From Candidatus Dormiibacterota bacterium (GTDB taxonomy: Bacteria > Chloroflexota > Dormibacteria > CF-121): DNA of 64,000 bases. The DNA lies in assembly GCA_036782775.1 (NCBI GenBank), contig DAIPYJ010000001.1, positions 115,404-179,403 of the forward strand, in the 5' to 3' direction. The position numbers were made by a program, and so were the translations under genes. The notes under the pieces were generated by a model, which did not search any database, was not told the DNA's origin, and saw only the letters and a program-made list of their open reading frames with translations. Below are positions 9,109-36,369 of this stretch, in pieces; position 1 is the stretch's first letter, and each line of letters begins with the position of its first letter.

Positions 9109-9168
9109 GCTGCGACCAGCTTACCCCCGAACGTGCTACAACGAGGTCGTTCACAAGGAGGGGACAAC

Positions 9169-11967: not shown

Positions 11968-11974
11968 GGCCGGG

Positions 11975-18364: not shown

Positions 18365-21866
<3,502 letters not shown>

Positions 21867-21870
21867 GGCG

Positions 21871-22710
21871 CTAGTGAATCACGTCGCCCAGGCGCTCGAG
21901 TTGCTCGATCTGGGGGACCGTCGGGAAGAGGATGAGCTCATCGCAACCGGCGTCCTCATATCCACGGATGAAGTCGACGATCGCACCGGGCGAGGTCAGA
22001 TTTCCGGCAGCGATCTTCTCGGCGAACGGTCCGGTGAAGGCGTAGTAATGGCGAAGATATTCGGCGCCCGGCTGGGCCACGCCCTCACCGAGCGCGAAGT
22101 AGCCCATTCCCCACAGCGCGGGCACGCCCGGCCGACCCATGTCCGTCCATGCCGCCTTCGCCCGGGCGACGGCGCCAGCGAACGCGCGCGCCGGTCCCCC
22201 TCCGTGTACGTAGCCGTCGGCATAGCGCGCCATGCGAGCTAACGCCTCACCGCTCGAGCCGCCGACCAGGATCTGGGGACCGCGACCGCTGACGCGAGGA
22301 CCCACCTTGCCGTCTTCCCAAACGTCTCGGATCTCCTCGAGCTGCTCGGCGAAGCGTCGCCCACGGCCGCGCGCCTCGAGCCGTGAGACCTCGTAATCCT
22401 CCCCGCGCGCGCCGACCGCGAGGCCAAGGGTGAATCGGCCGGGCGCGAGCGCATCAAGCGAGGCGGCTTGCTTAGCGAGCAAGACCGTGTTTCGCAGCGG
22501 CGCGATCACGATCATGGTGGCCAGCCGGATCCGTTTCGTCACCGCCGCCGCGGCGGCCAGCGCCACAAACGGCTCATAGTTTTGATACGCGACTCGGTCG
22601 AGGCAACCGAGACAGTCGAACGGGCCGCCATCCGCTCGTCTCGCCCACTCCGTCAGCTGCTCGCCGCTAAGGCCGCTCATGGTGGTGGGCAGGCCGACGC
22701 CAATTTTCAT
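21871..22710 (-). CDS. luciferase-like monooxygenase (LLM) class F420-dependent oxidoreductase
   Basis: ATG at 22710 gives MKIGVGLPTT..., an LLM TIM-barrel of about 280 aa. Confidence 0.7.
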   Translation of the reverse strand: MKIGVGLPTTMSGLSGEQLTEWARRADGGPFDCLGCLDRVAYQNYEPFVALAAAAAVTKRIRLATMIVIAPLRNTVLLAKQAASLDALAPGRFTLGLAVGARGEDYEVSRLEARGRGRRFAEQLEEIRDVWEDGKVGPRVSGRGPQILVGGSSGEALARMARYADGYVHGGGPARAFAGAVARAKAAWTDMGRPGVPALWGMGYFALGEGVAQPGAEYLRHYYAFTGPFAEKIAAGNLTSPGAIVDFIRGYEDAGCDELILFPTVPQIEQLERLGDVIH

Positions 22711-22739: not shown

Positions 22740-23567
22740 ATGACGGCGTTCCGCGGCTCGGCAAAGCCGACGCAAGCGTGGAACCACTTCGATTTTGCCG
22801 TCGACGCCGGGATCGCGAAGCTAACCTTCAACCGGCCGCAAAAGTTAAATGCGTTGACCTTCGAGGTCTACGCCGACCTACGGGATCTTCTCGCCGAGCT
22901 TCCTCAGCGGGACGATGTTCGAGTCCTGGTCATCACTGGAACCGGACGTGGCTTCAACTCTGGGGGCGACGTCAACGAGATCATCGGCGAACTTCGGAAG
23001 ATGGACGCGCGCCAATTGCTTGCCTTCACGCGCATGACCGGCAGCGTGACCCAGCGGATGCGGGAGTGCCCTCTGCCAATCATCGCCTCGGTCAACGGCG
23101 TCGCGGCTGGCGCCGGAGCGGTTATCGGCCTTGCGGCCGACCTCCGGATCCTCGCGCGTTCGGCGACCTTCGCCTTCCTCTTCACCAAGGTCGGCCTCTC
23201 GGGCGGAGACATGGGGTCTGCCTATCTGTTGCCCCGGATCGTCGGGCTCGGCCGCGCCAGTGAATTGCTGCTGCTGGGTGAGCGAGTGGATGCCGAGAAG
23301 GCGCTCGCCATCGGCCTCGCAAATGCCGTGGTCGACGATAGCGAGCTGGTCAAGCAAACTGAAGAGCTCGCTCAGCAGCTGGCGCAAGGGCCGGCGCTTG
23401 CCTACGCAGCGACGAAGTCTCTACTCTCGCGACAGCTCGACATGAACCTGTCAGCATCCCTGGAACTCGATTCGATGACCCAGGCATTGCTGATGAAGAG
23501 CGCCGACCATGCCGAGTTCTACCGCGCCTTCCAGGAAGGGCGTCAGCCAGAGTGGACCGGCCGCTGA
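22740..23567 (+). CDS. enoyl-CoA hydratase / isomerase (crotonase family)
   Basis: Carries crotonase-fold motifs (ITGTGRGFNSGGDV, oxyanion hole). Confidence 0.8.
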   Translation: MTAFRGSAKPTQAWNHFDFAVDAGIAKLTFNRPQKLNALTFEVYADLRDLLAELPQRDDVRVLVITGTGRGFNSGGDVNEIIGELRKMDARQLLAFTRMTGSVTQRMRECPLPIIASVNGVAAGAGAVIGLAADLRILARSATFAFLFTKVGLSGGDMGSAYLLPRIVGLGRASELLLLGERVDAEKALAIGLANAVVDDSELVKQTEELAQQLAQGPALAYAATKSLLSRQLDMNLSASLELDSMTQALLMKSADHAEFYRAFQEGRQPEWTGR

Positions 23568-23578
23568 CTCCACACCGG

Positions 23579-23971
23579 GTGGTCAATCCACCGGAACTGG
23601 CGCGACCAACCGGATACTCTCACGCGATCGTGGCCCAGCCGGGACGGACGATCTACCTGGCCGGACAGACGGCGCAACGCGCCGACGGATCGATCGCTGG
23701 CAACACGATGGCTGAGCAGTTCGATCAGGCCGCCGCGAACCTCGCGACCGCGCTGCGCGCCGCTGGCGCCGAGCCGGCTGATCTCGTCAGCATGCAGATC
23801 TTCGTGACCAATATCGAGGAATACCTTCGTTCGCGAAAAGAAATTCGACGCGCCTATCAGCGTCACTTTGGCGACCACTATCCGGCGATGGGTCTCTTCC
23901 AAGTGAGCCGACTGTTTGATGCGGCAGCGAAAGTCGAACTTATGGCGATCGCCGTCGCAGCGGATCAGTGA
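23579..23971 (+). CDS. RidA/YjgF-family reactive-intermediate (enamine/imine) deaminase
   Basis: GTG at 23579 lies 11 nt after the crotonase stop. The product VVNPPELARPTGYSHAIVA... is the RidA N-terminus, about 130 aa. Confidence 0.75.
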   Translation: MVNPPELARPTGYSHAIVAQPGRTIYLAGQTAQRADGSIAGNTMAEQFDQAAANLATALRAAGAEPADLVSMQIFVTNIEEYLRSRKEIRRAYQRHFGDHYPAMGLFQVSRLFDAAAKVELMAIAVAADQ

Positions 23972-24491: not shown

Positions 24492-25613
24492 CTAGCGTCC
24501 CTTGAAGAGGTCCCGGGCGATGATCTCGCGCTGGATTTCAGAGGTGCCTTCGTAGATTCGTGGCGCGCGCACTTCTCGGTATAGGTGCTCGAGTAGGTGG
24601 CCTCGTTCGAGCGCGATCGCGCCGTGCACCTGGATGCTGACATCGATGACACGCTGCGCGGTCTCTGTCGCAAAGAGCTTCGCCATCGCCGAGTAACGGG
24701 CAACGTGCGCGTCGCCGCGGTCGTACGCCTCCGCGGCCTCGTACACCAGTGCCCGTGCTGCCTCCAGCCGTGTCGCCATCTCCGCCAGCTGGTGTGACAC
24801 GGCTTGAAAGTCCTTGATCGGCCGGCCGAACGCCTTTCGTTTTGCCGCGTGCTCGATTGACGCATCGAGGGCCGCCTGTGCCATGCCGAGCGCATTCGCG
24901 CCGACGCTCGGCCGGAAAAGATCGAGGGTTCGCATCGCGAGCCGAAAGCCCTGGTTCACCTCGCCGAGCACCCGATCGTCCGCGACCACAACATCCTCGA
25001 GCTCGAGGCGGCCGATTGGATGATCCGACACGATTTGCAGAGGGCGACCCCTCATCCCCTTGGCCTTCCCGTCGACGAGAAAGGCGGTGATGCCCTTGCT
25101 TCCAGCGTCGGCCGCCGTTCTCGCGAACAGTGTGTAGAAATCCGCATCTGGCGCGTTCGAGATGAACGCCTTTGTCCCCGTGAGCCGGTAGCCGTCCGGT
25201 TCGCGCCTGGCGGTCAGCTGGAGGGCGCCTGCATCGGTGCCGGCATCGGGCTCGGTTAGGGCGAAGGCCGCGACGGCATCACCATGTACCACTGGGTCGA
25301 CGAAGCGCGCGACCTGGTCATCGGTTCCCGCCAGCAGGATCGGGATGATCCCGAGCAGCTGAATCGTGAGCGCGTTCTCGACCGTGGTCGACTCCCGGGC
25401 CAGCGCCTCGCGCACGACGCAGAGCTCAACTGACGAAAAGGGCGCGTCCTCGCCAGCGCGGCTCCGGCGAAGGAGCCGCCTAGGGAAGCCTTCGCCGGCG
25501 AGGGCGCGCACCAACGGCCGATTGACGCGACCTGGTTCGCCGGTCCGAGAGACATCAGCGAGCTTCTTTGCGGCAGTGGCCGCGTCAGCTGACAGCCGAT
25601 CGTGGTCCGTCAC
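24492..25613 (-). CDS. acyl-CoA dehydrogenase
   Basis: 373 aa with ACAD signatures (ALTEPDAGTDAG, the C-terminal catalytic-Glu region YEGTSEIQ). Confidence 0.85.
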   Translation of the reverse strand: MTDHDRLSADAATAAKKLADVSRTGEPGRVNRPLVRALAGEGFPRRLLRRSRAGEDAPFSSVELCVVREALARESTTVENALTIQLLGIIPILLAGTDDQVARFVDPVVHGDAVAAFALTEPDAGTDAGALQLTARREPDGYRLTGTKAFISNAPDADFYTLFARTAADAGSKGITAFLVDGKAKGMRGRPLQIVSDHPIGRLELEDVVVADDRVLGEVNQGFRLAMRTLDLFRPSVGANALGMAQAALDASIEHAAKRKAFGRPIKDFQAVSHQLAEMATRLEAARALVYEAAEAYDRGDAHVARYSAMAKLFATETAQRVIDVSIQVHGAIALERGHLLEHLYREVRAPRIYEGTSEIQREIIARDLFKGR

Positions 25614-26389
25614 GCCTGGACGGATCCGCCGTCGAGGACGATGCCCTGTCCCGTAATGCCGCGCGCACCTTCGCTGCAGAGGTAGACCGCGAGGCTGGCG
25701 ACTTCCTCGACCGTCATCAATCGTCCTTGAGGGCTGACGTTTTCCAGCAACTTGCGAGCGGCCTCCTCCGTCCGCCCGGTCCGCGCGGAGATGTACGCCG
25801 CGGATCGGTCCGTCATCTCACTATCGACATAGCCGGGACAGACCGCGTTGACCGTAATGCCATGGGTCGCGACCTCGGCCGCGACCGATCGAGTGAGGCC
25901 GAGCAGGGCGTGTTTCGAGGCGGCGTAGGCCGTTATGTATGGAGCACCGGCCCTCGCCGCGACCGAGGCAACGTTGACGATGCGGCCCCACTTGGCCGCG
26001 AGCATGGCAGGCATCACCGCCTTCATGCACCAGAACGCTGCCGTGGCGTTGACGCGAAGCATCAGGTCCCACATCTTGTCCGTCGTCTGGGCCAGCCGAG
26101 CGCTGGCCGCAATGCCGGCGTTGTTGACCAGGATCAGAGGGTCGCCGAGAGTTCGCGTGGCTTGCTCAAACATGCTGTCGACCTGGCTCCGCTCACTCAC
26201 GTCGCAGATGACGGCCTCGCTTCGCCGTCCGGCTTCCCGAATGCGGTCTCGCGTTTCCTCGAGCTCCGGCTTTGAGCGACCAGCAACCGCCACATCGGCA
26301 CCAGCAGAAGCCAAGCCGAGCGCGATCGCGCGGCCGATGCCCCTTCCGCCGCCGGTAACGAGCGCAATTCGGCCCGAGAGGTCGCCCAT
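25610..26389 (-). CDS. SDR-family oxidoreductase (3-oxoacyl reductase / 3-hydroxyacyl-CoA dehydrogenase-like)
   Basis: Carries TGGGRGIG, NNAG and YxxxK (YAASK) motifs. Confidence 0.85.
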   Translation of the reverse strand: MGDLSGRIALVTGGGRGIGRAIALGLASAGADVAVAGRSKPELEETRDRIREAGRRSEAVICDVSERSQVDSMFEQATRTLGDPLILVNNAGIAASARLAQTTDKMWDLMLRVNATAAFWCMKAVMPAMLAAKWGRIVNVASVAARAGAPYITAYAASKHALLGLTRSVAAEVATHGITVNAVCPGYVDSEMTDRSAAYISARTGRTEEAARKLLENVSPQGRLMTVEEVASLAVYLCSEGARGITGQGIVLDGGSVQA

Positions 26390-26390
26390 G

Positions 26391-27344
26391 TCAGTGGGAG
26401 CCGAGAAGACCCGCCAGCTTCGGCAGGTCGATGTTTCCGCCCGAAACGACGCACGCGATGCGGCCCGTTCCCGCCTTGCCGGAAAGCGCCACGGCGAGCG
26501 CGACGGCCCCGGCGCCTTCGGCGATCACTCGGTTGCGTTCGGCCATGAGACGCACCGCAGCCGCAATCTCGTCGAGGCTGGCCGTGAAGGAGCCATCGAG
26601 GAGATCGACGGCCATGGCCAACATGTCGGGAAAGACCGTCTTGCTGCCGATGCCGTCGACGAACGATGGCTGATAGTCGACGACCTGCGGAGACCCGGCC
26701 TTAAGCGAAGCCGTGAGCGGCGCGCCGGTCTCCGCTTCGACGGCGTAGATGCGTACAGAGGGCTTGATTGCGCGCAGCGCCGCGGCGATGCCGCATGCGA
26801 GTCCGCCGCCACCCCAGGGGATGAGGACCGTGTCGAGATCAGGCAGGTCTTCGAGCAACTCGAGGCCGATCGTCCCATTTCCCGCCATCACCCGGTCATC
26901 GTCGAAGGAGTGGATGAAGGCGGCGTCGACGCCCGGATAGCTGCGATCGGTGAACGTCTGCCACCAGCGGTCGAATGGAACTTTCATCACACGGCCGCCG
27001 AGGCGCTCGATGGCGCGGACCTTGGTGTCGGGCGCGTAATCCGGGGCAATGACGGTGCAGGAGACGCCAAGACGACGGGCATTGAAGGCGGCGCCCTGCG
27101 CCATGTTCCCCGCGCTGGCGACCAGCACGCCCTTTGCAAGTTCGGCGGGCGCCATTTGGCTCATCGCGAAGCCGGCCCCGCGAATTTTGAATGATCCGAT
27201 CGGTTGCAGGTTCTCCAACTTGAGATAGATCTCGGCCGGCGAATCCCAGACGTTCAGCCGAACCAGCGGCGTCCTGAGCGCGACCCCGGCAATGGCCTGA
27301 CGCGCCCCGCGGATGGTTTCGAGGTCCAGCCGGGTCGTTTTCAC
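26391..27344 (-). CDS. threonine/serine dehydratase-like fold-type II PLP enzyme
   Basis: Carries the SFKIRGA PLP-lysine motif and GGGGL. It is 317 aa, overlaps the upstream OCD-like gene by 4 nt, and lies 1 nt upstream of the SDR. Confidence 0.8.
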   Translation of the reverse strand: MKTTRLDLETIRGARQAIAGVALRTPLVRLNVWDSPAEIYLKLENLQPIGSFKIRGAGFAMSQMAPAELAKGVLVASAGNMAQGAAFNARRLGVSCTVIAPDYAPDTKVRAIERLGGRVMKVPFDRWWQTFTDRSYPGVDAAFIHSFDDDRVMAGNGTIGLELLEDLPDLDTVLIPWGGGGLACGIAAALRAIKPSVRIYAVEAETGAPLTASLKAGSPQVVDYQPSFVDGIGSKTVFPDMLAMAVDLLDGSFTASLDEIAAAVRLMAERNRVIAEGAGAVALAVALSGKAGTGRIACVVSGGNIDLPKLAGLLGSH

Positions 27345-28339
27345 ATCCGCACGGTCTGACCGATGCCACGCCGGCGCGCCTCGCGGGCGACGAAGGCGGC
27401 AGACGCCACGTCCTCGACCGAAAGACCGAGCGATTTGAAAAGCGTCAGCTCCTCAGCCGAACGCCGGCCATGGCTCTTGCCGATGATGACCTCACCAAGC
27501 TCAGCCACGATGTGCTCCGCGGTGATTTTGCCTTCCCGCATCGGGATCAGCATGTCGCCGGCCTCGTTCAGCGCCGACTCACGGCGATCGACATACAGCC
27601 TGGCGTCAGCGACGGTGCTCGAGTCTAGCTCGCGGGTCGTCGGAATCGACGACCCCACGGCATTGATGTGGGCTCCGGGCTTCAGCCAGGAACGATGCAG
27701 CACCGGCTCGGGACTCGCCGTTACGGTGGCAACGATGTCGGCGCCGCGCACTCCAGCTTCGGCGGAACGCACGGCCTCGACCGGGAACCGATATTTCGGC
27801 GCTTCTTGTTCGACGAGGGCTGCCGCGTGCTCTGCCGTTCGGCTCCAGACCCGCACGCGACTCAGGGGTCGCACCGCCGCGATCGCCTCCAGGTGCGTGC
27901 GTGCCTGCACGCCCGCCCCGAGGATCGCGAGCTCCGCGGCTTCCGGTCGCGCGAGCACGTCGGTTGCCACGCCAGAGACGGCGGCCGTGCGAATCGCCGT
28001 GATCGTCCCGCCATCCATCAGCGCGGAGAGGCGGCCAGTATCAGCTTCGAAAAGCAGGACCGCACCCTGATGCGTGTCGATGTCCCTGGCCGCATTCCCT
28101 GGGAAGACAGAGACCGCCTTCATCCCGAGCGCCCCCTCCGCCGTGTCCTCCGGCGCAATGTAGCCGGGCATCAGCCCAAGGAAGCCAGAACCGTCGGGCA
28201 TCCGCATGACGAGGCGCAAAGGAACCAGTGCCTTGCCCTTTGCCAGCGCGGCCAGCGCATCGCGCATCACCTCGATACAGGCGCGCATCGGCAGCAGCTG
28301 GGCGACGTCCTCCGCAGACAGGACGAGGACGTGAGTCAT
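27341..28339 (-). CDS. ornithine cyclodeaminase / mu-crystallin family NAD-dependent enzyme
   Basis: 332 aa. The OCD_Mu_crystall family pattern is present (GAGVQARTHLEA Rossmann). Confidence 0.8.
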   Translation of the reverse strand: MTHVLVLSAEDVAQLLPMRACIEVMRDALAALAKGKALVPLRLVMRMPDGSGFLGLMPGYIAPEDTAEGALGMKAVSVFPGNAARDIDTHQGAVLLFEADTGRLSALMDGGTITAIRTAAVSGVATDVLARPEAAELAILGAGVQARTHLEAIAAVRPLSRVRVWSRTAEHAAALVEQEAPKYRFPVEAVRSAEAGVRGADIVATVTASPEPVLHRSWLKPGAHINAVGSSIPTTRELDSSTVADARLYVDRRESALNEAGDMLIPMREGKITAEHIVAELGEVIIGKSHGRRSAEELTLFKSLGLSVEDVASAAFVAREARRRGIGQTVRM

Positions 28340-29316
28340 GCGGCGGCCTGCATGGACTCGACAACGCGCTCACGGTCTAAGGGGCTGAGGCGGATGTCGA
28401 CGGCATCGACCCAGGGCTTGAACTGCTCGATCCGGCGTGGTCCAATGAGAGCCGCCGTCACCGCCGGGTGGCTCAGCACCCAGGCGAGCGCCAGGGCTCC
28501 CATCTCGACGCCACGGCGATCCGCCTCCCGGCGCAAGGCATCGAGGGCACTGAAGGTCGCTTGATTCATGAAGCCGCGATACGGCTGAGGCCGCAAAGCC
28601 AGCCGTGAGCCTGAAGGCGGCGTTGCGCCGAACTGATATTTTCCGGTCAGCAGTCCCCCCGCCGTCGGGCTGAACGGCGTTACCGCCAGCCGCTCGCGGG
28701 CTGCCAGCGGCAGGATTTCTCGCTCCATCTCGCGATCGAGCAGGCTGTAGCCGTTCTGGACCGATTGATACCGCACGACGCCCAGCCGGTCACTGGTCGC
28801 GAGCGATCGTTCCAGCTGCGGACCGCTGATGTTACTGGAACCGATGCAGCGAACTTTGCCGGCTTGGACAAGCTCGTTCATCGCGGTCAGCGACTCGTCC
28901 TCCGGCGTATCCGGATCCGGTTCCATGGTCACGTACAGGTCCACATAGTCGGTCTGCAGCCGGCGAAGGCTGCCGTCGATCGCCTGCATGATGTGGCGCC
29001 GGGACAAGCTTCGGTCGTTCGGTCCTTCCGCGATCGCGTAGAAGACCTTGGTCGACAGGACCAGTTGATCCCGTCCTTTGCGCTCTTTGAGCCAGGCACC
29101 GATGGTCCGCTCCGATTCGCCCCCGCCATAGCTGTCGGCCGTGTCGAAGTAATTGATGCCCAGCTCGACGGCCTGGCTCATGAGCGCAAAGGCCGTGCGG
29201 CGGTCCTCGCCTTTGCCGAACAATTCGGGGGCGGAGCCAATGCCGCCAAAGCCGCCGCAGCCCAGGCCGAGGACGCTGACGCGCATCCCGGTTCGTCCGA
29301 AATCCCGGTACTCCAT
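28336..29316 (-). CDS. aldo/keto reductase
   Basis: MEYRDFGRTGMRVSVLGLGC... is the AKR N-terminus. It is 326 aa and leads the five-gene minus-strand operon. Confidence 0.85.
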   Translation of the reverse strand: MEYRDFGRTGMRVSVLGLGCGGFGGIGSAPELFGKGEDRRTAFALMSQAVELGINYFDTADSYGGGESERTIGAWLKERKGRDQLVLSTKVFYAIAEGPNDRSLSRRHIMQAIDGSLRRLQTDYVDLYVTMEPDPDTPEDESLTAMNELVQAGKVRCIGSSNISGPQLERSLATSDRLGVVRYQSVQNGYSLLDREMEREILPLAARERLAVTPFSPTAGGLLTGKYQFGATPPSGSRLALRPQPYRGFMNQATFSALDALRREADRRGVEMGALALAWVLSHPAVTAALIGPRRIEQFKPWVDAVDIRLSPLDRERVVESMQAAA

Positions 29317-29366
29317 CCCTCTCCCGTCGTGATGGTAAGGCTTGACCGTTGCTAAGATCGGCCAGC

Positions 29367-30143
29367 ATGTCTATCCAGCAGCGTGCGCGGCTTCGCCACC
29401 AGGATGAGATCCGCGGCATCGCGTTCGACGCGGGCGTGATGCAATGGCTGGTTGATCGCAGCCTTGGCGCCGAGCATGTGATGGCGTACCGGTTGACCAT
29501 CAATCCTGGCGCAAGTGCGAGCCACGCTCACCCGGGAGCCGAAGAAGTCGTGTACGTGATCGAGGGGACCGGCGAAATCCAGGTGGAAGACGCCCGCCAC
29601 CTCGTCGACGCCGGCAAGGCGGTCTTCATTCCCGACGGCGCCGAACACAGTCACGTCAATACGGGGACGACGCCGTTCGTCATGGTGGGCGCGATGGCGC
29701 CGCCCATCGATCCGGCAACCATCCGTCCGGCGGCACCGCATCGTGCCGGCGCCATGGCACCAGCAACTCGCGATAAAGTCGATGTCCAACCGACGCGCAT
29801 GGACGAGCGCGAGATCGCGCCGACGTTGATGGGCGAGCGCAGCTTTCGAGTCATGGTGAGCCCCGCCGTAGGCTGCCAGCGGATGACCCAATTCACCGGC
29901 GTGATTCCGACCGGGCGCGCACCGCTGCACGCGCATCCCCATGAAGAAGCGGTCTATGTCCTGGCGGGCCAGGGAAGGCTGTGGATCGAGGACGAGGCTG
30001 TCGGCGAGCTGCGGCCCGGCTCGGTCGTCTTCTTTCCCATCGGGGTTCGGCACACGCTCGAGAACGTCGGCCGCGAGGACATGAAGGTGCTGGGCGCCTT
30101 TTCGCCCGCGGGCTCGCCCGAAGCCAAGCTCCCGCCGGCCTGA
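29367..30143 (+). CDS. bicupin (two cupin domains) protein
   Basis: It has two G(x)5HxH...E...G...H-type cupin motifs (HAHPGAEEVVYV and HAHPHEEAVYVL). ATG at 29367; a TTG at 29349 is the alternative start. Confidence 0.6.
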   Translation: MSIQQRARLRHQDEIRGIAFDAGVMQWLVDRSLGAEHVMAYRLTINPGASASHAHPGAEEVVYVIEGTGEIQVEDARHLVDAGKAVFIPDGAEHSHVNTGTTPFVMVGAMAPPIDPATIRPAAPHRAGAMAPATRDKVDVQPTRMDEREIAPTLMGERSFRVMVSPAVGCQRMTQFTGVIPTGRAPLHAHPHEEAVYVLAGQGRLWIEDEAVGELRPGSVVFFPIGVRHTLENVGREDMKVLGAFSPAGSPEAKLPPA

Positions 30144-30145
30144 GC

Positions 30146-30967
30146 TCACATGCCGAGATAGGCCCGCTGCATCTGCGGGTTGTGCAATAGCGATTCAGCC
30201 GTGCCCTGCAGGACGACACGCCCGCTCTGCAGCACATAGCCGCGGTTGGCGATCGCCAGCGCCATGGTGGCGTTCTGCTCGACGACGAAAATCGTGATCC
30301 CGGTCTGATTCAGCTGTTTGATCGTCTCGAATTGCTGCTCGACGAGCACCGGCGCCAATCCCATCGATGGCTCATCCATGCAGAGGAAGCGGGGCCGGGA
30401 CATCAGAGCGCGGGCCATCGCGAGCATCTGCTGCTCGCCACCTGACATGGTGCCGCCTCGTTGTGCCGACCGCTCGCCAAGGCGAGGGAACATCGCGATC
30501 ACGCGCTCGAGATCCTGGTCGATGGCACCGCGATCCTTGCGGCCGAAAGCGCCCATCATCAGGTTCTCCCGAACCGTCAGCCGCGGAAAGATGCGGCGGG
30601 CCTCAGGCACGATCGCGATGCCGGCACCGACCCGACGCGAGGTGTTCCAGCCGGTCACGTCCTGGCCCTCGTACCAGACGGCGCCCTTGGTCGGCCGGAG
30701 CGAGCCGATGACCGTTTTCATCGTGGTTGACTTGCCTGAGGCGTTGCCGCCGAGCAGGCAGACGATCTCGCCTCGGCGGATTTCCATGCTGACCTCGCGC
30801 AAGGCGGGCACCGGGCCGTAGCGCACCTCGACGTCCTGTAGCCGCAGGACGATTTCGTCCGGCTCCGGACCCGCCCTAGGCGGACGCTGCCCGTCGACCG
30901 AGATAGGCTTCGACGACTCGGGGATTGCTGTGCACCTCCTTTGGCTCGCCCTCGGCGATCTTGACAC
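30146..30967 (-). CDS. livF: branched-chain amino acid ABC transporter ATP-binding protein (LivF-like)
   Basis: Carries Walker A GGNASGKST and the signature LSGGEQQ. There is no canonical start near the expected N-terminus (EIVLRLQDVEVRYG); the first in-frame start is the GTG at 30967, inside livG. Confidence 0.7.
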   Translation of the reverse strand: MSRSPRASQRRCTAIPESSKPISVDGQRPPRAGPEPDEIVLRLQDVEVRYGPVPALREVSMEIRRGEIVCLLGGNASGKSTTMKTVIGSLRPTKGAVWYEGQDVTGWNTSRRVGAGIAIVPEARRIFPRLTVRENLMMGAFGRKDRGAIDQDLERVIAMFPRLGERSAQRGGTMSGGEQQMLAMARALMSRPRFLCMDEPSMGLAPVLVEQQFETIKQLNQTGITIFVVEQNATMALAIANRGYVLQSGRVVLQGTAESLLHNPQMQRAYLGM

Positions 30968-31658
30968 CGTGATCCATGACCACCACTCGGTCAGAAATTT
31001 CCATCACCAGCGGCATGTGATGCTCGATCAAGAAGATCGTCAAGCCACGATCGCGCATCGCCCGAATCAGGCCTGCCATCTCGATCCGCTCGTACGGATT
31101 CATGCCAGCCGCAGGCTCATCGAGGAGCAGCAACTTCGGGCGCGCGGCCAACGCTCGGGCAATCTCGGTTCGCCGGCGGTTGGCGTAGGAAAGCGAGAAA
31201 GCTGGGTCGTCGAGCCGCGGCTCGAGGCGCTCGCGAAAGCAGTCGATCGCGGTGTCGACCTCGGCCTGCGCGGCGCGCTCCGCTCGGATCGTGCCCGGCC
31301 AGAAGACCACCGATCCGAGCATGCCGCTCCGCGTCCAGTGATGCGTTCCCAGGAGGATGTTCTCCCGCACGGTCAACTGCGGAAAGACGCGAATGTTCTG
31401 GAACGTCCGGGCGATTCCCATGGCCGCGATCCGATGGGCGGGCCGCCCGACCAGCTCGCTTCCGAGCAGCTGGACCGACCCCATCCGCGGCCGAATGACT
31501 CCGGAGATGAGATTGAAGACAGTGGTTTTGCCTGCGCCATTGGGACCGACGAGGCTGACGATCTCTCCCCGATCGATCTCGATCTGGAAATCGTCGACTG
31601 CCGTCAATCCGCCGAACCGATGCGTCAACCCGCGGATCTCCAGGACGCGATCACTCAT
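30876..31658 (-). CDS. livG: branched-chain amino acid ABC transporter ATP-binding protein (LivG-like)
   Basis: GGAGGA SD then ATG at 31658 gives MSDRVLEIRGLTHRFGGL..., with GPNGAGKTT Walker A. Confidence 0.8.
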   Translation of the reverse strand: MSDRVLEIRGLTHRFGGLTAVDDFQIEIDRGEIVSLVGPNGAGKTTVFNLISGVIRPRMGSVQLLGSELVGRPAHRIAAMGIARTFQNIRVFPQLTVRENILLGTHHWTRSGMLGSVVFWPGTIRAERAAQAEVDTAIDCFRERLEPRLDDPAFSLSYANRRRTEIARALAARPKLLLLDEPAAGMNPYERIEMAGLIRAMRDRGLTIFLIEHHMPLVMEISDRVVVMDHGVKIAEGEPKEVHSNPRVVEAYLGRRAASA

Positions 31659-32904
31659 GACCGTCCTCCGGTGCGACGATGGCACCCGACGCGGCTTCGG
31701 CATCCGCCGCATCGATCTTGGTGACGGCCGGTTGTTCCTCAGCCTCGATGCCGGCCTCAGCGGTGATCAGTTCAAGCGTCCCGCCGAAGATTTTCCGCGG
31801 CCGGATCGAGACCGTGCCGAGCAGGCCTTCCGGTCGGAAGACCATGACCGCGATTAGGAGCACGCTGATGATCAGGTACTTGTAAAAAACGAAGTTCTGC
31901 AAGAGGAACGGTGGAACGGTAAATGCGATCGCGCCCAGGATGGCCCCGGGCAGGCTGCCCAGCCCACCGAGGATGACCATGATGAAGACCATCACGGTGG
32001 TCTGCACGTCGAAGTTGGGGCTGGGAAAGGCATTGAAGATGAACGCGGCATCGATCATTCCCACGATGCCCGCCATGACCGCGCTGGTGCAGAACGCGAG
32101 CAACCGGTACTTGAAGGTGTTGACGCCCATCGCCCGGGCAGCGAGCTCATCCTCACGGATCGCCACCCAGGCGCGGCCGGTGCGCGTGTGGCGCCACCGG
32201 AGCACGGCGTACATAGACAGCGCGAGAAACCCAAGAAAAAGCCAGTAGTACATCCGGTAATGCGGGACCTCGCCAATCAGCGGCAGGCTCGATGGCAGGC
32301 TGAACGGCGCGACCCCATGAAGCCCGTTTGTGCCGCCTGTGAGATTCAGGGAGTCGGGCCCGAACTGGTGGCCGGCCAGCACCGGGGGGCGGTCGAGATC
32401 GAGGATGAGGTCGCGCATGATGAGGCCGAAGGCGAGCGTCACGATCGCCAGGTAGTCGCCGCGGAGGCGGAGCGCCGGCACACCCACCAGCAACGCGAAA
32501 GCGAGCGTCACCACGATCACGACGAGCAAAGCCGCCCAGAGCGGGTAATGCTGGTGGATCTGGTCGCTCGCAACCAGCGCGTAGGCGTAGGAACCGATGC
32601 CAAAGAAGGCAATAAAGCCGAGATTGAGAAGCCCGGCATAACCGACTACCAGGTTGAGCGCGACCGCCAGGCAGGCAAACATGGCGCAATTGGCCAGGAT
32701 CAATGTCCAGAACTGCGCGCCAATCCAGCTGGAGTTGTCCTCGACGAACTGGAGCACGAGCGGCACCAGGGCCGCCGCGACGAAGAATGGGACAAGGACG
32801 TAGGGCCGGGTAAGGGTAGCGTTCCAGGCGGATGGCCCTGACTCCCAGAAGCGCTTGAGGGGATGGCTGTGATCACCCTCGAAGGCCGCGGGCTGCGCGC
32901 TCAT
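31651..32904 (-). CDS. livM: branched-chain amino acid ABC transporter permease (LivM-like)
   Basis: 417 aa polytopic membrane protein in the LivM family. Confidence 0.8.
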   Translation of the reverse strand: MSAQPAAFEGDHSHPLKRFWESGPSAWNATLTRPYVLVPFFVAAALVPLVLQFVEDNSSWIGAQFWTLILANCAMFACLAVALNLVVGYAGLLNLGFIAFFGIGSYAYALVASDQIHQHYPLWAALLVVIVVTLAFALLVGVPALRLRGDYLAIVTLAFGLIMRDLILDLDRPPVLAGHQFGPDSLNLTGGTNGLHGVAPFSLPSSLPLIGEVPHYRMYYWLFLGFLALSMYAVLRWRHTRTGRAWVAIREDELAARAMGVNTFKYRLLAFCTSAVMAGIVGMIDAAFIFNAFPSPNFDVQTTVMVFIMVILGGLGSLPGAILGAIAFTVPPFLLQNFVFYKYLIISVLLIAVMVFRPEGLLGTVSIRPRKIFGGTLELITAEAGIEAEEQPAVTKIDAADAEAASGAIVAPEDGHE

Positions 32905-33824
32905 GCCCGGTCCGTCAGCGGCTGGCCGAACAGGCCCTGAGGCCGCACCAGCAAGACCAGGATCAGCGCGAGAAAAACGAACGTGTCCTGAAACTGGGTG
33001 CTGATGAAACCGCCAACCATGTTTTCCAGCACTCCGAGCAACAGCCCGCCTACCATGGCGCCGCGGATGTTGCCAATGCCGCCAATGACGGCGGCCGTGA
33101 ATGCCTTGATACCGAGCAGGTAACCCATGAAGAAGTTGACCGTTGCGTAGCGCAGGCCGAAGAGCAGGCCGGCCATTCCGGCCAACGCCGAGGCGATGAA
33201 GAAGGTGATCATGATGACCCGGTCGACGTCGATGCCCATGAAGGTCGCGGCCTCGCGGTCCTGCGCCGTCGCTCGCATGGCGCTTCCAAACTGGGTCCGA
33301 AAGATGAAGCGATCAAGCGCGACCATCAGCGCCGCGGCCACGAGGAAGAGCATGACTCCGGTAAGCGGCGTCTCGACGCTGCCGACTCGCAGCACCGTCT
33401 GCGGCACGAGTGCGTAGGTTTGCACGCCGACCGGCGCGGGGCTCACCCAGACCTGAACGGCGCTTTCGAGGAAGAGGGAGACCCCGATTGCGGTGATCAA
33501 GGGCGCGAGCCGGTTGGCGTTGCGCAGCGGCCGGTATGCCACGCGTTCGATCGCGACGCCGAGCCCGCCGGCGCCACCCATCGCCGTGAGCAACATGATG
33601 CCGACGATCAGCCCGGCGGGCACGGCCGCGACCTCGTTGTGCACCAGCAATGCTGCGACGCCGGCCGCGAGGAAGGCACCCACCATGTAGACGTCGCCAT
33701 GCGCGAAGTTGAGCAGTTCGAGGATGCCGTAGATCAGGGTGTAGCCGAGCGCGACCAGGGCGTAGAGGCTCCCGAGTTCCAGCCCGTTGATCAGCTGCTG
33801 CAGGAAGGTAGCCACGGCAATCAA
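32901..33824 (-). CDS. livH: branched-chain amino acid ABC transporter permease (LivH-like)
   Basis: 307 aa. N-terminus MIAVATFLQQLINGLELGSLYALVALGYTLIYG is the LivH signature. Confidence 0.8.
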   Translation of the reverse strand: MIAVATFLQQLINGLELGSLYALVALGYTLIYGILELLNFAHGDVYMVGAFLAAGVAALLVHNEVAAVPAGLIVGIMLLTAMGGAGGLGVAIERVAYRPLRNANRLAPLITAIGVSLFLESAVQVWVSPAPVGVQTYALVPQTVLRVGSVETPLTGVMLFLVAAALMVALDRFIFRTQFGSAMRATAQDREAATFMGIDVDRVIMITFFIASALAGMAGLLFGLRYATVNFFMGYLLGIKAFTAAVIGGIGNIRGAMVGGLLLGVLENMVGGFISTQFQDTFVFLALILVLLVRPQGLFGQPLTDRA

Positions 33825-33863
33825 AAAGGGGACGGGCGCCGTCCCGTCCCCTTTCTTACTCCT

Positions 33864-36348: not shown

Positions 36349-36369
36349 TCTATGTTGATGTCGCGCGAT

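What the first reader, a model, noticed from the sequence alone, without database searches (positions are those of the whole stretch)
25610..29316. Tightly coupled AKR / OCD-like / threonine-dehydratase-like / SDR (/ ACAD) operon: candidate novel amino-acid-derivative catabolic module
Five minus-strand genes are joined by 4-nt overlaps or a 1-nt gap: aldo/keto reductase, ornithine-cyclodeaminase/mu-crystallin family, a fold-type II PLP enzyme with the SFKIRGA motif (threonine/serine dehydratase or racemase family), SDR, and ACAD. Adjacent OCD-like plus threonine-dehydratase-like pairs are known from hydroxyectoine catabolism (EutB/EutC) and other cyclic or hydroxy amino-acid pathways. Here they are combined with two extra redox enzymes and an ACAD, and there is no ectoine hydrolase. 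The divergent neighbour is a bicupin. Neither the substrate nor the pathway is obvious from sequence.
Basis: partly seen in the sequence, partly recalled or inferred. Interest (0 to 1): 0.55.

Follow-up and report, generated by a model that had tools for sequence, protein, structure and literature searches.

The report
Two catabolic modules fused in one operon
The five tightly packed genes are real and conserved in the uncultured soil phylum Dormibacterota, but they join two separate units: the last two genes belong to a known (only partly worked out) route for burning tryptophan-derived anthranilate, and the first three form a widespread, uncharacterised cassette that in several lineages lies beside tryptophan-degradation genes.

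Summary
Five minus-strand genes (AKR, OCD/mu-crystallin, fold-II PLP enzyme, SDR, ACAD) sit at the stated coordinates, joined by 4-nt overlaps or a 1-nt gap, with a divergent bicupin. The same order is kept in 27 of 30 Dormibacterota-type loci.

It is not one new pathway. SDR and ACAD, together with the neighbouring enoyl-CoA hydratase and a 703-aa FAD-monooxygenase/OYE fusion, match the aerobic anthraniloyl-CoA (abm-type) clusters of Ralstonia and Streptomyces; a RidA-family gene is present in both but shows no detectable similarity. The same window also encodes tryptophan 2,3-dioxygenase, a kynurenine-formamidase-type cyclase, kynureninase and a PaaK-like CoA ligase.

AKR-OCD-PLP is a separate cassette. 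It occurs without SDR/ACAD in other lineages, usually with a metal-binding cupin, sometimes with a Liv-type ABC importer and a kynureninase-like enzyme, or directly beside TDO and kynureninase. It fails the EutB/EutC, BhcB/BhcD and SbnA/SbnB models. Residue signatures point to an NADPH-dependent CRYM-type imine reductase and a dehydratase-type PLP enzyme with an invariant SAGNM motif.

The substrate remains unknown. This is a new variant of a known kind, of moderate interest.

The parts
28336..29316 (-). Aldo/keto reductase (326 aa), first gene of the operon, with a GGGAGAGGG Shine-Dalgarno-like sequence upstream
   Evidence: Pfam Aldo_ket_red 218 bits. The best solved relatives are 4xk2 and the DON 3-epimerase DepB-type ketoreductases. 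No NCBIfam model reaches its cutoff. It is conserved directly upstream of OCD in 10 of 33 non-Dormibacterota loci, and in those always together with PLP.
27341..28339 (-). OCD/mu-crystallin family protein (332 aa), predicted to be an NADPH-dependent CRYM-type ketimine/imine reductase and not a cyclodeaminase
   Evidence: Pfam 271 bits. Best PDB hits are the Pyr2C reductase 6t3e (237 bits) and CRYM 4bv8 (214 bits). The substrate tetrad R42-K74-R117-D310 is present. The cyclisation triad E/D/K of P. putida OCD is G55/S231/T235 here, against G/S/W in CRYM. The NAD-specific Asp is replaced by S166-R167 (read against PMC4141209).
26391..27344 (-). Fold-type II PLP enzyme (317 aa), TdcB-like and dehydratase-type, without a regulatory domain; a distinct subfamily with the motif SAGNM(A/G)QG
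   Evidence: PALP 223 bits. Best PDB hit is TdcB 2gn0 at 183 bits. K53 lies in SFKIRGA. The residue before Gly is Ala, as in dehydratases, not Ser as in racemases (established knowledge). The His->Met change is invariant in all 10 orthologues aligned, which come from several lineages. EutB scores 231 against a cutoff of 413, and BhcB 176 against 550.
25610..26389 (-). SDR (259 aa), counterpart of the SDR that follows the aroyl-CoA monooxygenase/reductase gene in Ralstonia abm-type clusters
   Evidence: adh_short 202 bits. It is 49-53% identical to the Ralstonia SDR encoded immediately after the ACMR homologue. 135 of 187 plasmid hits are Ralstonia records.
24492..25613 (-). Acyl-CoA dehydrogenase (373 aa), counterpart of the ACAD of abm-type clusters
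   Evidence: Acyl-CoA_dh domains. It is 43-45% identical to the Ralstonia cluster ACAD and 57.6% to a Streptomyces sp. BHT-5-2 ACAD that lies about 5 kb from ECH (58%) and ACMR (45.5%) homologues, a CoA ligase and a PaaX-like regulator.
29367..30143 (+). Bicupin (258 aa) divergent from AKR; the C-terminal cupin carries the conserved HxHx3E...H metal site
   Evidence: Two Cupin_2 domains. Motifs lie at H59/H61/E66/H100 and H194/H196/E200/H235. Only the C-terminal site is kept in homologues of other lineages, and L071/L075 carry a monocupin that aligns with the C-domain. A cupin or bicupin lies next to the cassette in L071, L075, L086, L089, L100 and L112.
30146..35063 (-). Liv-type ABC importer: two ATPases, two permeases and a Peripla_BP_6 binding protein
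   Evidence: Pfam and public gene calls. It is found next to the cassette in L071, L075, L100 and L112 as well; in L089 only the binding-protein gene was detected. It is lost in the L015/L022 Dormibacterota clade.
35170..36339 (-). Class-V PLP enzyme (389 aa), a distant kynureninase-like protein
   Evidence: Aminotran_5 152 bits plus KYNU_C 29.5 bits, above its cutoff of 27. Best solved relative is kynureninase 1qz9 at 112 bits, ahead of cysteine desulfurases at 84. Orthologues of 47-51% identity lie beside the ABC genes in L071 and L075.
19755..21866 (-). FAD_binding_3 + OYE fusion (703 aa): homologue of anthraniloyl-CoA (2-aminobenzoyl-CoA) monooxygenase/reductase and salicylyl-CoA 5-hydroxylase
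   Evidence: NF006101 scores 840 bits over the full length, against an equivalog cutoff of 1078. It is 46-47% identical to the Ralstonia 'anthraniloyl-CoA monooxygenase'.
21871..22710 (-). Luciferase-like (F420/FMN-type) oxidoreductase upstream of the fusion gene
   Evidence: Bac_luciferase 108 bits and TIGR03619 122 bits against a cutoff of 167. It is syntenic in Dormibacterota. Its role is unknown.
22740..23567 (+). Enoyl-CoA hydratase family protein of the PRK08258 type
   Evidence: NF006107 scores 379 bits, above its cutoff of 330. It is 44% identical to the Ralstonia cluster ECH and 58% to the Streptomyces ECH next to ACMR.
23552..23971 (+). RidA/YjgF family protein
   Evidence: Ribonuc_L-PSP and TIGR00004 at 53 bits. 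A RidA gene also closes the Ralstonia cluster, but no sequence similarity to it was detected at E 1e-5.
8314..9108 (-). Tryptophan 2,3-dioxygenase
   Evidence: Trp_dioxygenase 204 bits.
6625..7857 (+). Kynureninase
   Evidence: KYNU_C 122 bits plus Aminotran_5.
4589..5374 (+). Cyclase-family protein (kynurenine formamidase KynB type)
   Evidence: PF04199 Cyclase 136 bits. The KynB assignment is inferred from context.
9094..10533 (+). PaaK-like aryl-CoA ligase divergent from TDO; candidate anthranilate-CoA ligase
   Evidence: AMP-binding_C_2 plus AMP-binding. The role is inferred from its position only.

Best explanation
The five-gene operon is a Dormibacterota-specific fusion of two conserved modules that serve tryptophan catabolism.

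Module 1 consists of SDR and ACAD, plus the adjacent ECH, RidA, LLM and FAD/OYE fusion genes. It is the lower part of the aerobic anthraniloyl-CoA (abm-type) pathway. TDO, a KynB-type cyclase and kynureninase, all encoded in the same window, turn tryptophan into anthranilate plus L-alanine. A CoA ligase activates anthranilate, and the FAD/OYE fusion hydroxylates and reduces the ring to 2-amino-5-oxocyclohex-1-ene-1-carbonyl-CoA. ECH, SDR, ACAD and RidA then deaminate, open and beta-oxidise it. The individual steps are inferred and are not fully known in any organism.

Module 2 consists of AKR-OCD-PLP, with the divergent metal cupin and, facultatively, the Liv-type importer and a kynureninase-like enzyme. 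It is an independent cassette that works like the BhcB/BhcD pair. The dehydratase-type PLP enzyme performs a beta-elimination on an alpha-amino acid and releases a 2-imino or 2-oxo acid. The CRYM-type OCD homologue reduces this 2-imino acid, or its cyclised ketimine form, with NADPH. The AKR reduces a carbonyl of the same substrate or product.

The cassette's repeated placement beside TDO, kynureninase and kynureninase-like genes suggests that its substrate is a tryptophan/kynurenine-derived amino acid, or the small amino-acid product of kynureninase-type cleavage. Which of these it is has not been resolved.
For: Shown for module 1:
- The window's SDR, ACAD and ECH find as their only window matches the SDR, ACAD and ECH of the Ralstonia cluster ACMR-SDR-MarR-ECH-ACAD-ligase-thioesterase-RidA, at 53%, 45% and 44% identity.
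- The top plasmid hits of the SDR are those Ralstonia genes.
- The best plasmid hit of the ACAD (57.6%) lies in a Streptomyces cluster with ECH (58%), ACMR (45.5%), an AMP ligase and PaaX.
- The fusion protein matches NF006101 over its full length at 840 bits, and the ECH passes the PRK08258 cutoff.
- TDO, kynureninase, a KynB-type cyclase and a PaaK-like ligase are in the window.
- The literature says the steps after the monooxygenase/reductase are ascribed to beta-oxidation enzymes and are otherwise unknown (PMC4539516; PMC9007349).

Shown for modularity:
- Of 33 non-Dormibacterota loci with both flanks, 10 carry AKR-OCD-PLP, 8 carry OCD-PLP and 15 carry OCD alone. None has SDR/ACAD attached.
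- L018 and L021 keep OCD-SDR-ACAD but lack both AKR and PLP.

Shown for the link to tryptophan:
- A genuine TDO lies 38 nt divergent from AKR in L081, with the same layout in L076 and L111. L111 also carries the 3' end of a kynureninase gene.
- In L088 the OCD homologue sits beside ACMSD-like, KynU, KMO-like, TDO and KynB genes.
- The AT5 partner is kynureninase-like.

Shown for enzyme type:
- OCD residues are G55/S231/T235 and S166-R167, with an intact R-K-R-D tetrad.
- The PLP enzyme has K53, Ala before Gly, and an invariant SAGNM motif.
Against: - No experiment exists for any of these proteins, and every Dormibacterota sequence comes from a metagenome-assembled genome.
- The kynurenine genes lie 15-20 kb from the operon, with purine-catabolism genes in between. 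Synteny within a single phylum may reflect descent rather than function.
- The fusion protein falls below the curated equivalog cutoff (840 against 1078). It could act on salicylyl-CoA or another aroyl-CoA.
- The window RidA shows no detectable similarity to the Ralstonia RidA.
- The window has a PaaK-like ligase rather than a canonical anthranilate-CoA ligase.
- Half of the OCD orthologues stand alone in housekeeping contexts, for example directly upstream of rpsL. In Thermoanaerobaculia the OCD-PLP pair has no catabolic neighbours. The OCD may therefore have a general role unrelated to tryptophan.
- TDO adjacency is seen in perhaps 3-4 lineages only; the three loci with TDO directly beside AKR all have GC 0.71-0.73 and may represent a single lineage.
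- The role proposed for the AKR is a guess.
Confidence: 0.55

Rival explanations
1. All five genes, with the bicupin and transporter, form one new pathway for a cyclic or hydroxy amino acid (hydroxyectoine-, hydroxyproline- or pipecolate-like). The ACAD and SDR act on a CoA ester derived from the same substrate.
For: The junctions are overlapping or 1 nt apart, and the order is conserved in 27 of 30 Dormibacterota loci. The bicupin gives a weak Ectoine_synth hit of 40.7 bits. The EutB and EutC models are among the better-scoring ones. A Liv-type amino-acid importer lies adjacent.
Against: The SDR and ACAD have their closest counterparts in ACMR-linked clusters of two other phyla. The cassette occurs without SDR/ACAD in every non-Dormibacterota locus. 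OCD-SDR-ACAD occurs without AKR/PLP. Nothing in the operon would make a CoA ester. Tight junctions also join apparently unrelated genes in this genome. The EutB and EutC models are missed by about half their cutoff.
Confidence: 0.1
2. The OCD homologue is a general alanine / 2-oxo-acid dehydrogenase or Pyr2C/Pip2C reductase of central amino-acid metabolism. It is recruited next to kynureninase-type enzymes because these release L-alanine. The PLP enzyme is a serine/threonine deaminase feeding the same 2-oxo-acid pool. The trio is a small 'pyruvate/2-oxobutyrate node', not a dedicated pathway.
For: Fifteen of 33 orthologous loci have OCD alone in housekeeping surroundings such as rpsL-rpsG-fusA, an S4-domain protein and endonuclease V. 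The closest solved enzyme, TlLhpI, has AlaDH, N-methyl-Ala dehydrogenase and Pyr2C reductase activities, and serine/threonine dehydratase genes often flank LhpI genes (PMC4141209). Both kynureninase and the kynureninase-like/desulfinase-like AT5 would release alanine (the enzymology is established knowledge). OCD is kept when AKR and PLP are lost.
Against: The signature residues follow CRYM (G/S) rather than AfAlaDH (R/D/K). The cofactor site looks NADPH-type, which suits reduction rather than oxidative deamination. This reading does not explain the AKR or the cupin. The invariant His->Met change marks the PLP enzyme as something other than a standard threonine deaminase.
Confidence: 0.2
3. 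The OCD homologue belongs to the aroyl-CoA module itself. It reduces or deaminates an imine/enamine intermediate or an amino-acid precursor of the CoA pathway. AKR and PLP are accessory.
For: L018 and L021 retain OCD directly fused to SDR-ACAD-...-ACMR after loss of AKR, PLP and the transporter. In the Burkholderia sp. SFA1 plasmid, a 44%-identical OCD homologue lies between a Liv-type transporter and genes for indolepyruvate-type oxidoreductase, a thioesterase, an ACMR-like hydroxylase/oxidoreductase and gentisate dioxygenase.
Against: The Ralstonia and Streptomyces abm-type clusters have no OCD homologue. The conserved R-K-R-D tetrad binds an alpha-amino/imino acid carboxylate, which does not fit a CoA thioester. 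Most orthologues are nowhere near ACMR genes. At 44% identity, the Burkholderia protein need not share the same function.
Confidence: 0.1
4. This is a lysine/ornithine-to-pipecolate/proline route. A neighbouring aminotransferase makes the 2-oxo acid, OCD acts as Pip2C/Pyr2C reductase, and the ACAD acts as a glutaryl-CoA-type dehydrogenase.
For: OCD scores 278 bits against the Pyr2C/Pip2C reductase model, whose cutoff is 322. The ACAD scores 197 bits against the non-decarboxylating glutaryl-CoA dehydrogenase model. Two aminotransferases and an amino-acid importer are nearby.
Against: There is no pipecolate oxidase, aminoadipate-semialdehyde dehydrogenase or 2-oxoadipate-converting enzyme in the neighbourhood. 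The ACAD's best counterparts are ACMR-linked. The class-I aminotransferase is not linked to the cassette outside Dormibacterota. This route leaves the PLP dehydratase unexplained.
Confidence: 0.05

Closest known systems
Aerobic 2-aminobenzoyl-CoA (anthraniloyl-CoA) pathway, abm clusters of Azoarcus evansii, Ralstonia, Cupriavidus, Arthrobacter and Streptomyces
   Same: Both have a two-domain FAD-monooxygenase/OYE-reductase fusion with ECH, SDR, ACAD and a RidA-family gene close by. The ECH, SDR and ACAD are 44-58% identical to the cluster genes of Ralstonia and Streptomyces. The upstream kynurenine-pathway genes would supply anthranilate.
   Different: The genes are split over three transcription units and interleaved with AKR-OCD-PLP and a luciferase-like oxidoreductase. 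There is no MarR or PaaX regulator and no canonical AMP-binding anthranilate-CoA ligase or thioesterase next to them; a PaaK-like ligase lies about 10 kb away. The fusion protein is below the curated equivalog score.
BhcB/BhcD of the beta-hydroxyaspartate cycle (dehydratase plus iminosuccinate reductase)
   Same: The same two protein families are adjacent: a fold-II PLP dehydratase and an OCD-family NAD(P)H imine reductase. A class-V PLP enzyme is in the neighbourhood. The logic proposed here (dehydrate, then reduce the imine) is taken from this system.
   Different: BhcB scores 176 bits against a cutoff of 550, and BhcD 201 against 500. There is no BhcC-type aldolase. The AT5 is kynureninase/SufS-like, not a serine-glyoxylate-type aminotransferase. 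An AKR and a cupin are present instead.
EutB/EutC of (hydroxy)ectoine catabolism
   Same: An adjacent threonine-dehydratase-like and OCD-like pair lies next to an importer. A cupin with weak ectoine-synthase similarity is adjacent.
   Different: EutB scores 231/413 and 212/413, and EutC 193/472. No EutD/DoeA hydrolase, EutE/DoeB deacetylase, EutA or EnuR-type regulator lies within +/-10 kb. The gene order and partners differ.
CRYM / ketimine reductase and the archaeal/bacterial Pyr2C reductases (TlLhpI, LhpI)
   Same: These are the best solved relatives (237 and 214 bits). The Gly and Ser at the two diagnostic positions and the Ser/Asn-Arg cofactor motif are as in CRYM.
   Different: The Pyr2C/Pip2C reductase model is not reached (278 against 322). 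No proline-racemase-type hydroxyproline dehydratase or D-amino-acid dehydrogenase is nearby. The conserved partners are a PLP dehydratase and an AKR.

Membership tests
EutB/EutC hydroxyectoine utilisation pair | PLP enzyme reaches the curated EutB equivalog models (NF005680, TIGR02991) | tested here: not met
   231.1 bits against a cutoff of 413, and 211.6 against 413.35.
EutB/EutC hydroxyectoine utilisation pair | OCD-like enzyme reaches the curated EutC model (TIGR02992) | tested here: not met
   193.2 bits against a cutoff of 471.65.
EutB/EutC hydroxyectoine utilisation pair | Clustered with ectoine hydrolase (EutD/DoeA) and deacetylase (EutE/DoeB) | tested here: not met
   No M24-type hydrolase or desuccinylase-type gene appears among the 24 called genes within +/-10 kb.
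BhcB/BhcD (beta-hydroxyaspartate cycle) | Curated equivalog scores for BhcB (NF045641) and BhcD (NF045643) | tested here: not met
   175.9 against 550, and 201.2 against 500.
BhcB/BhcD (beta-hydroxyaspartate cycle) | Presence of a BhcC aldolase and a BhcA aspartate-glyoxylate aminotransferase in the cluster | tested here: not met
   No aldolase was found in the neighbourhood. The class-V enzyme is kynureninase/SufS-like.
SbnA/SbnB (L-2,3-diaminopropionate synthase) | Curated equivalog scores (TIGR03945, TIGR03944) | tested here: not met
   51.6 against 350, and 161.1 against 327. The PLP enzyme is threonine-dehydratase-like, not cysteine-synthase-like.
True ornithine/lysine cyclodeaminase | Cyclisation triad Glu56-Asp228-Lys232 (P. 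putida numbering) | tested here: not met
   The equivalent residues are Gly55, Ser231 and Thr235 (alignments, read against PMC4141209).
OCD/CRYM superfamily imine/ketimine reductase | Rossmann motif and the substrate tetrad [R/K]-K-R-D | tested here: met
   GAGVQA, R42, K74, R117 and D310 are present, and all are invariant in 13 orthologues from two phyla.
OCD/CRYM superfamily imine/ketimine reductase | NAD(P)H-dependent reduction of a cyclic or acyclic 2-imino acid | not testable with these tools
   This needs an enzyme assay. The Pyr2C/Pip2C reductase model scores 277.7 against a cutoff of 322.
Fold-type II PLP serine/threonine dehydratase group | Schiff-base Lys in the SFKxRGA motif, a glycine-rich phosphate loop, and Ala (not Ser) before the Gly of the SxGN motif | tested here: met
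   K53 lies in SFKIRGA, and PWGGGGL and ASAGNM are present. The canonical His of SAGNH is Met in the whole orthogroup. No curated threonine ammonia-lyase model is reached; the best scores 252 against 379.
abm-type anthraniloyl-CoA pathway cluster | Two-domain FAD monooxygenase + OYE reductase acting on an aroyl-CoA | tested here: inconclusive
   The architecture is present and matches NF006101 over its full length at 840 bits, but this is below the cutoff of 1078. It is 46-47% identical to the Ralstonia enzyme. The substrate has not been tested.
abm-type anthraniloyl-CoA pathway cluster | Co-located ECH, SDR, ACAD and RidA homologous to those of characterised or annotated clusters | tested here: met
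   ECH is 44% (Ralstonia) and 58% (Streptomyces) identical, SDR 49-53%, and ACAD 45% and 58%. ECH passes the PRK08258 cutoff. A RidA-family gene is present, but no similarity to the Ralstonia RidA was detected.
abm-type anthraniloyl-CoA pathway cluster | Anthranilate-CoA ligase in the cluster | tested here: inconclusive
   There is no canonical AMP-binding ligase near the genes. The Ralstonia ligase finds no match in the window. A PaaK-like ligase lies divergent from TDO at 9094-10533.

The most novel reading that the evidence does not exclude
The AKR-OCD-PLP cassette, with its metal cupin and kynureninase-like partner, may encode an undescribed branch of bacterial tryptophan/kynurenine catabolism. 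In this branch a PLP enzyme of the SAGNM subfamily and a CRYM-type NADPH imine reductase would process an imine/enamine intermediate, conserving nitrogen as BhcB/BhcD do. Such a branch could include a bacterial counterpart of steps still unassigned to genes. Examples are the steps after the anthraniloyl-CoA monooxygenase/reductase, or a 2-aminomuconate-type imine reduction in the locus where the OCD homologue sits beside ACMSD-like, KMO-like, KynU and TDO genes.
Probability: 0.2. Interest if true: 0.7.

Novelty: new variant of a known kind. Interest (0 to 1): 0.45.

Why it matters
It gives a genomic handle on how an abundant, essentially uncultured soil phylum (Dormibacterota) may use tryptophan. 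The proposed route runs through the anthraniloyl-CoA pathway, whose later steps are unassigned in any organism. GapMind's authors left this pathway out for lack of knowledge (PMC9007349).

It also defines a three-gene cassette, conserved across lineages with GC 0.53-0.73, with clear sequence signatures: the PLP motif SAGNM and a CRYM-like reductase. No curated family model or paper searched accounts for it. In at least three or four lineages it, or its OCD gene, lies beside kynurenine-pathway genes. Characterising it would add a second or third example of the 'PLP dehydratase + OCD-family imine reductase' logic known from the beta-hydroxyaspartate cycle.

Tried and rejected
- EutB/EutC, BhcB/BhcD, SbnA/SbnB, LhpI, archaeal AlaDH and true OCD were tested with curated NCBIfam models. 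All fall below their cutoffs. True cyclodeaminase was also rejected on the residue triad.
- A racemase function for the PLP enzyme was rejected on the Ala-Gly-Asn motif (the motif rule is established knowledge).
- Literature searches for the gene combination found nothing relevant: OCD + threonine dehydratase + AKR; kynurenine + OCD + threonine dehydratase; OCD + cupin + AKR. Schuhle et al. 2001 (PMC95408) is not held, so the composition of the Azoarcus cluster was not read directly. Annotated Ralstonia and Streptomyces records were used instead.
- The promoter/terminator scan gave no signal above shuffled controls inside the operon. Rfam gave no match in 17-38 kb.
- The AT5 gene as the window's kynureninase was rejected, because a genuine kynureninase lies at 6625-7857. 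AT5 is a distant paralogue.
- The idea of a progressive loss of transporter, then AKR/PLP, then cupin within one clade was rejected. L015/L022 and L018/L021 are separate lineages.
- L026's apparent AKR/PLP decay is probably assembly frameshifts. ECH is also split there, and 98%-identical relatives are intact.
- The class-I aminotransferase at 36358-37530 was considered as a KAT-like partner. It is not linked to the cassette outside Dormibacterota.
- The plasmid OCD homologues in Sphingopyxis and Sinorhizobium have unrelated neighbours.

Full report
**Observation**

- AKR, 28336-29316
- OCD/mu-crystallin, 27341-28339
- fold-II PLP enzyme, 26391-27344
- SDR, 25610-26389
- ACAD, 24492-25613

The junctions are ATGA or GTGA 4-nt overlaps, except for a 1-nt gap between PLP and SDR. 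All five give strong Pfam matches, and the PLP enzyme contains SFKIRGA. A bicupin (29367-30143, +) is transcribed divergently, about 50 nt away. Third-position GC of 0.77-0.81 marks these as coding frames.

The sequence is identical to part of a Candidatus Dormibacteraeota MAG contig (GCA_036567485.1). No curated NCBIfam model reaches its cutoff for any of the five proteins.

**Is tight coupling special here?**

It is not. In the public gene calls for the same contig, 10 of 15 same-strand junctions overlap or are <=4 nt apart. These include an 8-nt overlap between the aroyl-CoA monooxygenase/reductase gene and an adenosine deaminase. That deaminase passes its curated cutoff and sits next to uricase, OHCU decarboxylase and xanthine dehydrogenase genes. 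Overlap therefore supports co-transcription but is weak evidence for a shared pathway. No promoter-like, terminator-like or Rfam signal interrupts the operon.

**Surroundings in the window**

- To the right of the bicupin: a Liv-type ABC importer (30146-35063), a class-V PLP enzyme (35170-36339) and a divergent class-I aminotransferase.
- To the left of the ACAD: a small hypothetical gene, RidA and ECH on the plus strand, then on the minus strand a luciferase-like oxidoreductase, a 703-aa FAD_binding_3 + OYE fusion and adenosine deaminase.
- Further left: purine catabolism genes, and then tryptophan 2,3-dioxygenase (8314-9108), kynureninase (6625-7857), a KynB-type cyclase (4589-5374) and a PaaK-like CoA ligase divergent from TDO.

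**Module 1: SDR and ACAD belong to an abm-type anthraniloyl-CoA module**

The fusion protein matches NF006101 ('bifunctional salicylyl-CoA 5-hydroxylase/oxidoreductase') over its full length at 840 bits, against a cutoff of 1078. It is 46-47% identical to the Ralstonia megaplasmid protein annotated as anthraniloyl-CoA monooxygenase.

The Ralstonia cluster reads ACMR-SDR-MarR-ECH-ACAD-AMP ligase-thioesterase-RidA. Its SDR, ACAD and ECH hit the window's SDR (53%), ACAD (45%) and ECH (44%) and nothing else in the window. In the reverse direction, the window SDR's best plasmid hits are those Ralstonia SDR genes, accounting for 135 of 187 records at 49% over the full length.

The window ACAD's best plasmid hit (57.6%) lies in Streptomyces sp. 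BHT-5-2. Within 10 kb of it are an ECH (58%), an ACMR homologue (45.5%), an AMP-binding ligase and a PaaX-like regulator. The ECH passes the curated PRK08258 cutoff.

According to the literature read, the monooxygenase/reductase turns 2-aminobenzoyl-CoA into 2-amino-5-oxocyclohex-1-ene-1-carbonyl-CoA. Further degradation is ascribed to beta-oxidation enzymes (PMC4539516; PMC3534580). The pathway was left out of GapMind for lack of knowledge (PMC9007349).

With TDO, the KynB-type cyclase, kynureninase and a CoA ligase in the same window, the most economical reading is a tryptophan -> anthranilate -> anthraniloyl-CoA catabolic island. The exact step catalysed by each of SDR, ACAD, ECH, RidA and LLM is inferred, not shown.

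**Module 2: AKR-OCD-PLP is an independent cassette**

A scan of species-representative genomes with an OCD alignment returned 38 loci. Most are Dormibacterota MAGs, many of them labelled Chloroflexi. They keep about 20 kb of synteny from the class-I aminotransferase to adenosine deaminase. Of 30 Dormibacterota-type loci with enough flank, 27 have all five genes. Three lack AKR and PLP together while keeping OCD-SDR-ACAD. One of these three, L026, probably reflects assembly frameshifts. The L015/L022 clade lacks the transporter and the class-V enzyme but keeps the cassette.

A metagenome scan with an alignment of Dormibacterota and Thermoanaerobaculia OCD sequences returned 62 non-Dormibacterota loci, with OCD identity of 49-59% and GC of 0.53-0.73. 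Among the 33 with at least 1 kb on both sides:
- 10 have AKR-OCD-PLP
- 8 have OCD-PLP
- 15 have OCD alone
- none has AKR-OCD without PLP
- none has SDR or ACAD attached

The arrangement is therefore nested (OCD; OCD-PLP; AKR-OCD-PLP) and independent of module 1.

**Partners of the cassette elsewhere**

- A cupin or bicupin lies next to it in L071, L075, L086, L089, L100 and L112. Only the C-terminal HxHx3E...H metal site is conserved across lineages, and L071 and L075 carry a monocupin equivalent to that domain.
- A Liv-type importer accompanies it in L071, L075, L100 and L112; in L089 only the binding-protein gene was detected. L071 and L075 also carry an orthologue (47-51%) of the window's class-V enzyme. 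That enzyme's best solved relative is Pseudomonas kynureninase at 112 bits, against 84 for SufS, and it carries a KYNU_C domain just above the Pfam cutoff.
- In L076, L081 and L111 the divergent neighbour of AKR is instead a genuine tryptophan 2,3-dioxygenase, 38 nt away in L081. L111 also shows the 3' end of a kynureninase gene.
- In L088 the OCD homologue lies beside ACMSD-like, KynU, KMO-like, TDO and KynB genes.
- In L069 a TDO lies about 3 kb upstream of AKR-OCD.

The cassette, or its OCD gene, is thus found beside kynurenine-pathway genes in several lineages. This is hard to ascribe to chance, given how rarely TDO occurs in bacterial genomes (the rarity is from general knowledge, not measured here).

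On the other hand, the OCD-alone loci are housekeeping. Examples lie directly upstream of rpsL-rpsG-fusA-like genes, or next to an S4-domain protein and endonuclease V. The Thermoanaerobaculia OCD-PLP pair sits among unrelated genes, with an arginine deiminase cluster 4-6 kb away.

**What the three enzymes look like**

*OCD homologue.*
- Its best solved relatives are the T. litoralis Pyr2C reductase (237 bits) and mouse and human CRYM (214 and 205 bits).
- I used the diagnostic positions described by Watanabe et al. (PMC4141209) and the residue-by-residue alignments.
- The substrate tetrad is intact (R42, K74, R117, D310).
- The cyclodeaminase triad E56/D228/K232 is G55/S231/T235 here. CRYM has G/S/W, TlLhpI has L/V/A and AfAlaDH has R/D/K.
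- The NAD-specific Asp is replaced by S166-R167; CRYM has N-R.
- I conclude that it is an NADPH-preferring imine/ketimine reductase and not a cyclodeaminase.

*PLP enzyme.*
- It is closest to catabolic threonine dehydratase TdcB (183 bits).
- It has the Schiff-base lysine, the glycine loop and Ala before Gly in the SxGN motif. By established knowledge of serine racemase versus dehydratases, this marks it as a dehydratase.
- In all 10 orthologues aligned, the canonical SAGNH is SAGNM. This defines a distinct subfamily.

*AKR.*
- It resembles ketone-reducing AKRs of the AKR11/13 type. This is uninformative about substrate.

**Mechanism proposed**

Module 1 works as in other abm-type clusters.

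For module 2 the best-precedented logic is that of BhcB/BhcD. The PLP enzyme carries out a beta-elimination. The OCD-family enzyme then reduces the released 2-imino acid, or its cyclised ketimine, with NADPH, so that the amino group is kept. The AKR adjusts a carbonyl on the same molecule. The metal cupin (or TDO) and the kynureninase(-like) enzyme act on the same imported substrate family.

I commit to this as the most likely mode of action, but with low confidence in the specific substrate. Candidates are a tryptophan/kynurenine-derived amino acid, or the small amino acid released by kynureninase-type cleavage. Rivals are set out separately:
- a general alanine/2-oxo-acid node
- OCD as part of the aroyl-CoA module, supported by L018/L021 and by a Burkholderia plasmid cluster in which a 44% OCD homologue lies beside an indolepyruvate-type oxidoreductase, a thioesterase, an ACMR-like gene and gentisate dioxygenase
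- a lysine/pipecolate route

**Comparison with known systems**

The pair is not EutB/EutC, BhcB/BhcD or SbnA/SbnB by curated models or by cluster composition. It is not a true cyclodeaminase. It works like, but is not a member of, the BhcB/BhcD type. The SDR/ACAD part is a member of a known kind of cluster, in a new arrangement and in a phylum without cultured representatives to test it.

Full-text searches found no paper that describes the AKR-OCD-PLP combination or links it to kynurenine genes.

**Verdict**

I rate the novelty as a new variant of a known kind, and the interest as moderate at 0.45. The most novel reading not excluded is an undescribed imine-reductase branch of tryptophan/kynurenine catabolism, at about 0.2 probability.

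Noticed in passing
window 10753-19762: A purine-catabolism block separates the kynurenine genes from the aroyl-CoA module. It comprises an M20 peptidase, xanthine-dehydrogenase-type FAD and molybdopterin subunits, a 624-aa amidohydrolase, OHCU decarboxylase, uricase, DUF3830 and adenosine deaminase. The adenosine deaminase overlaps the 3' end of the FAD/OYE fusion gene by 8 nt.
   Followed up: partly
window 8314-10533: TDO (-) and a PaaK-like aryl-CoA ligase (+) are divergent with essentially no spacer. The ligase is of the AMP-binding_C_2 type, not the benzoate/anthranilate-CoA ligase type found in the Ralstonia and Streptomyces clusters. If it activates anthranilate, it would be a non-orthologous replacement.
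   Followed up: no
L128 (Burkholderia sp. SFA1 plasmid AP022309.1, 193089-208045): A 44%-identical OCD homologue lies in a cluster with a Liv-type ABC transporter, a porin, a molybdopterin oxidoreductase, a two-subunit indolepyruvate-type ferredoxin oxidoreductase, a thioesterase, an ACMR-like hydroxylase/oxidoreductase and gentisate 1,2-dioxygenase. This looks like a route that makes an aroyl-CoA from an aryl amino or oxo acid without a ligase.
   Followed up: no
L122 3693-7959, L114 5634-7887, L102 1998-6218: In some metagenome lineages the stand-alone OCD orthologue sits immediately upstream of ORFs of 125-134 aa, 156 aa and, in L122 and L102, 690-735 aa (the L114 contig offers no such third ORF). 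The 134-aa ORF of L122 was confirmed as ribosomal protein S12. This is an unusual position for a catabolic gene.
   Followed up: partly
L088 9914-17846: The OCD orthologue (57%), without PLP or AKR, lies next to a complete 3-hydroxyanthranilate-type kynurenine cluster: an Amidohydro_2 ACMSD-like gene, kynureninase, a FAD_binding_3 KMO-like gene, TDO and a KynB cyclase. Two unannotated minus-strand genes (387 and 121 aa) lie in between.
   Followed up: partly
window 29367-30143 and L089 1658-2392, L112 3330-4082: The Dormibacterota bicupin has complete His/His/Glu/His motifs in both domains. The homologues in other lineages have lost the N-terminal site, and L071 and L075 have only a monocupin.
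   Followed up: yes
window 814-3347: A PALP + CBS-domain protein (458 aa; cystathionine beta-synthase-like) is followed on the same strand by a 386-aa ORF with a 4-nt overlap. This may be a transsulfuration pair. It is a second fold-II PLP enzyme in the window, unrelated to the finding.
   Followed up: no
window 36339-36358 and 29316-29367: Divergent gene pairs in this genome are separated by only about 20-50 nt (AT5 | class-I aminotransferase; AKR | bicupin). Promoters must therefore overlap coding sequence, or some transcripts are leaderless. The sigma-70 consensus scan finds nothing.
   Followed up: no
L018, L021 (Dormibacterota MAG contigs DASTJZ010000110.1, CAZRMD010000004.1): Two fairly deep Dormibacterota lineages have cleanly lost AKR and PLP together, along with the transporter and the class-V enzyme; L018 has also lost the bicupin. 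OCD is left fused to SDR-ACAD. The co-loss suggests that AKR and PLP depend on each other more than on OCD.
   Followed up: yes
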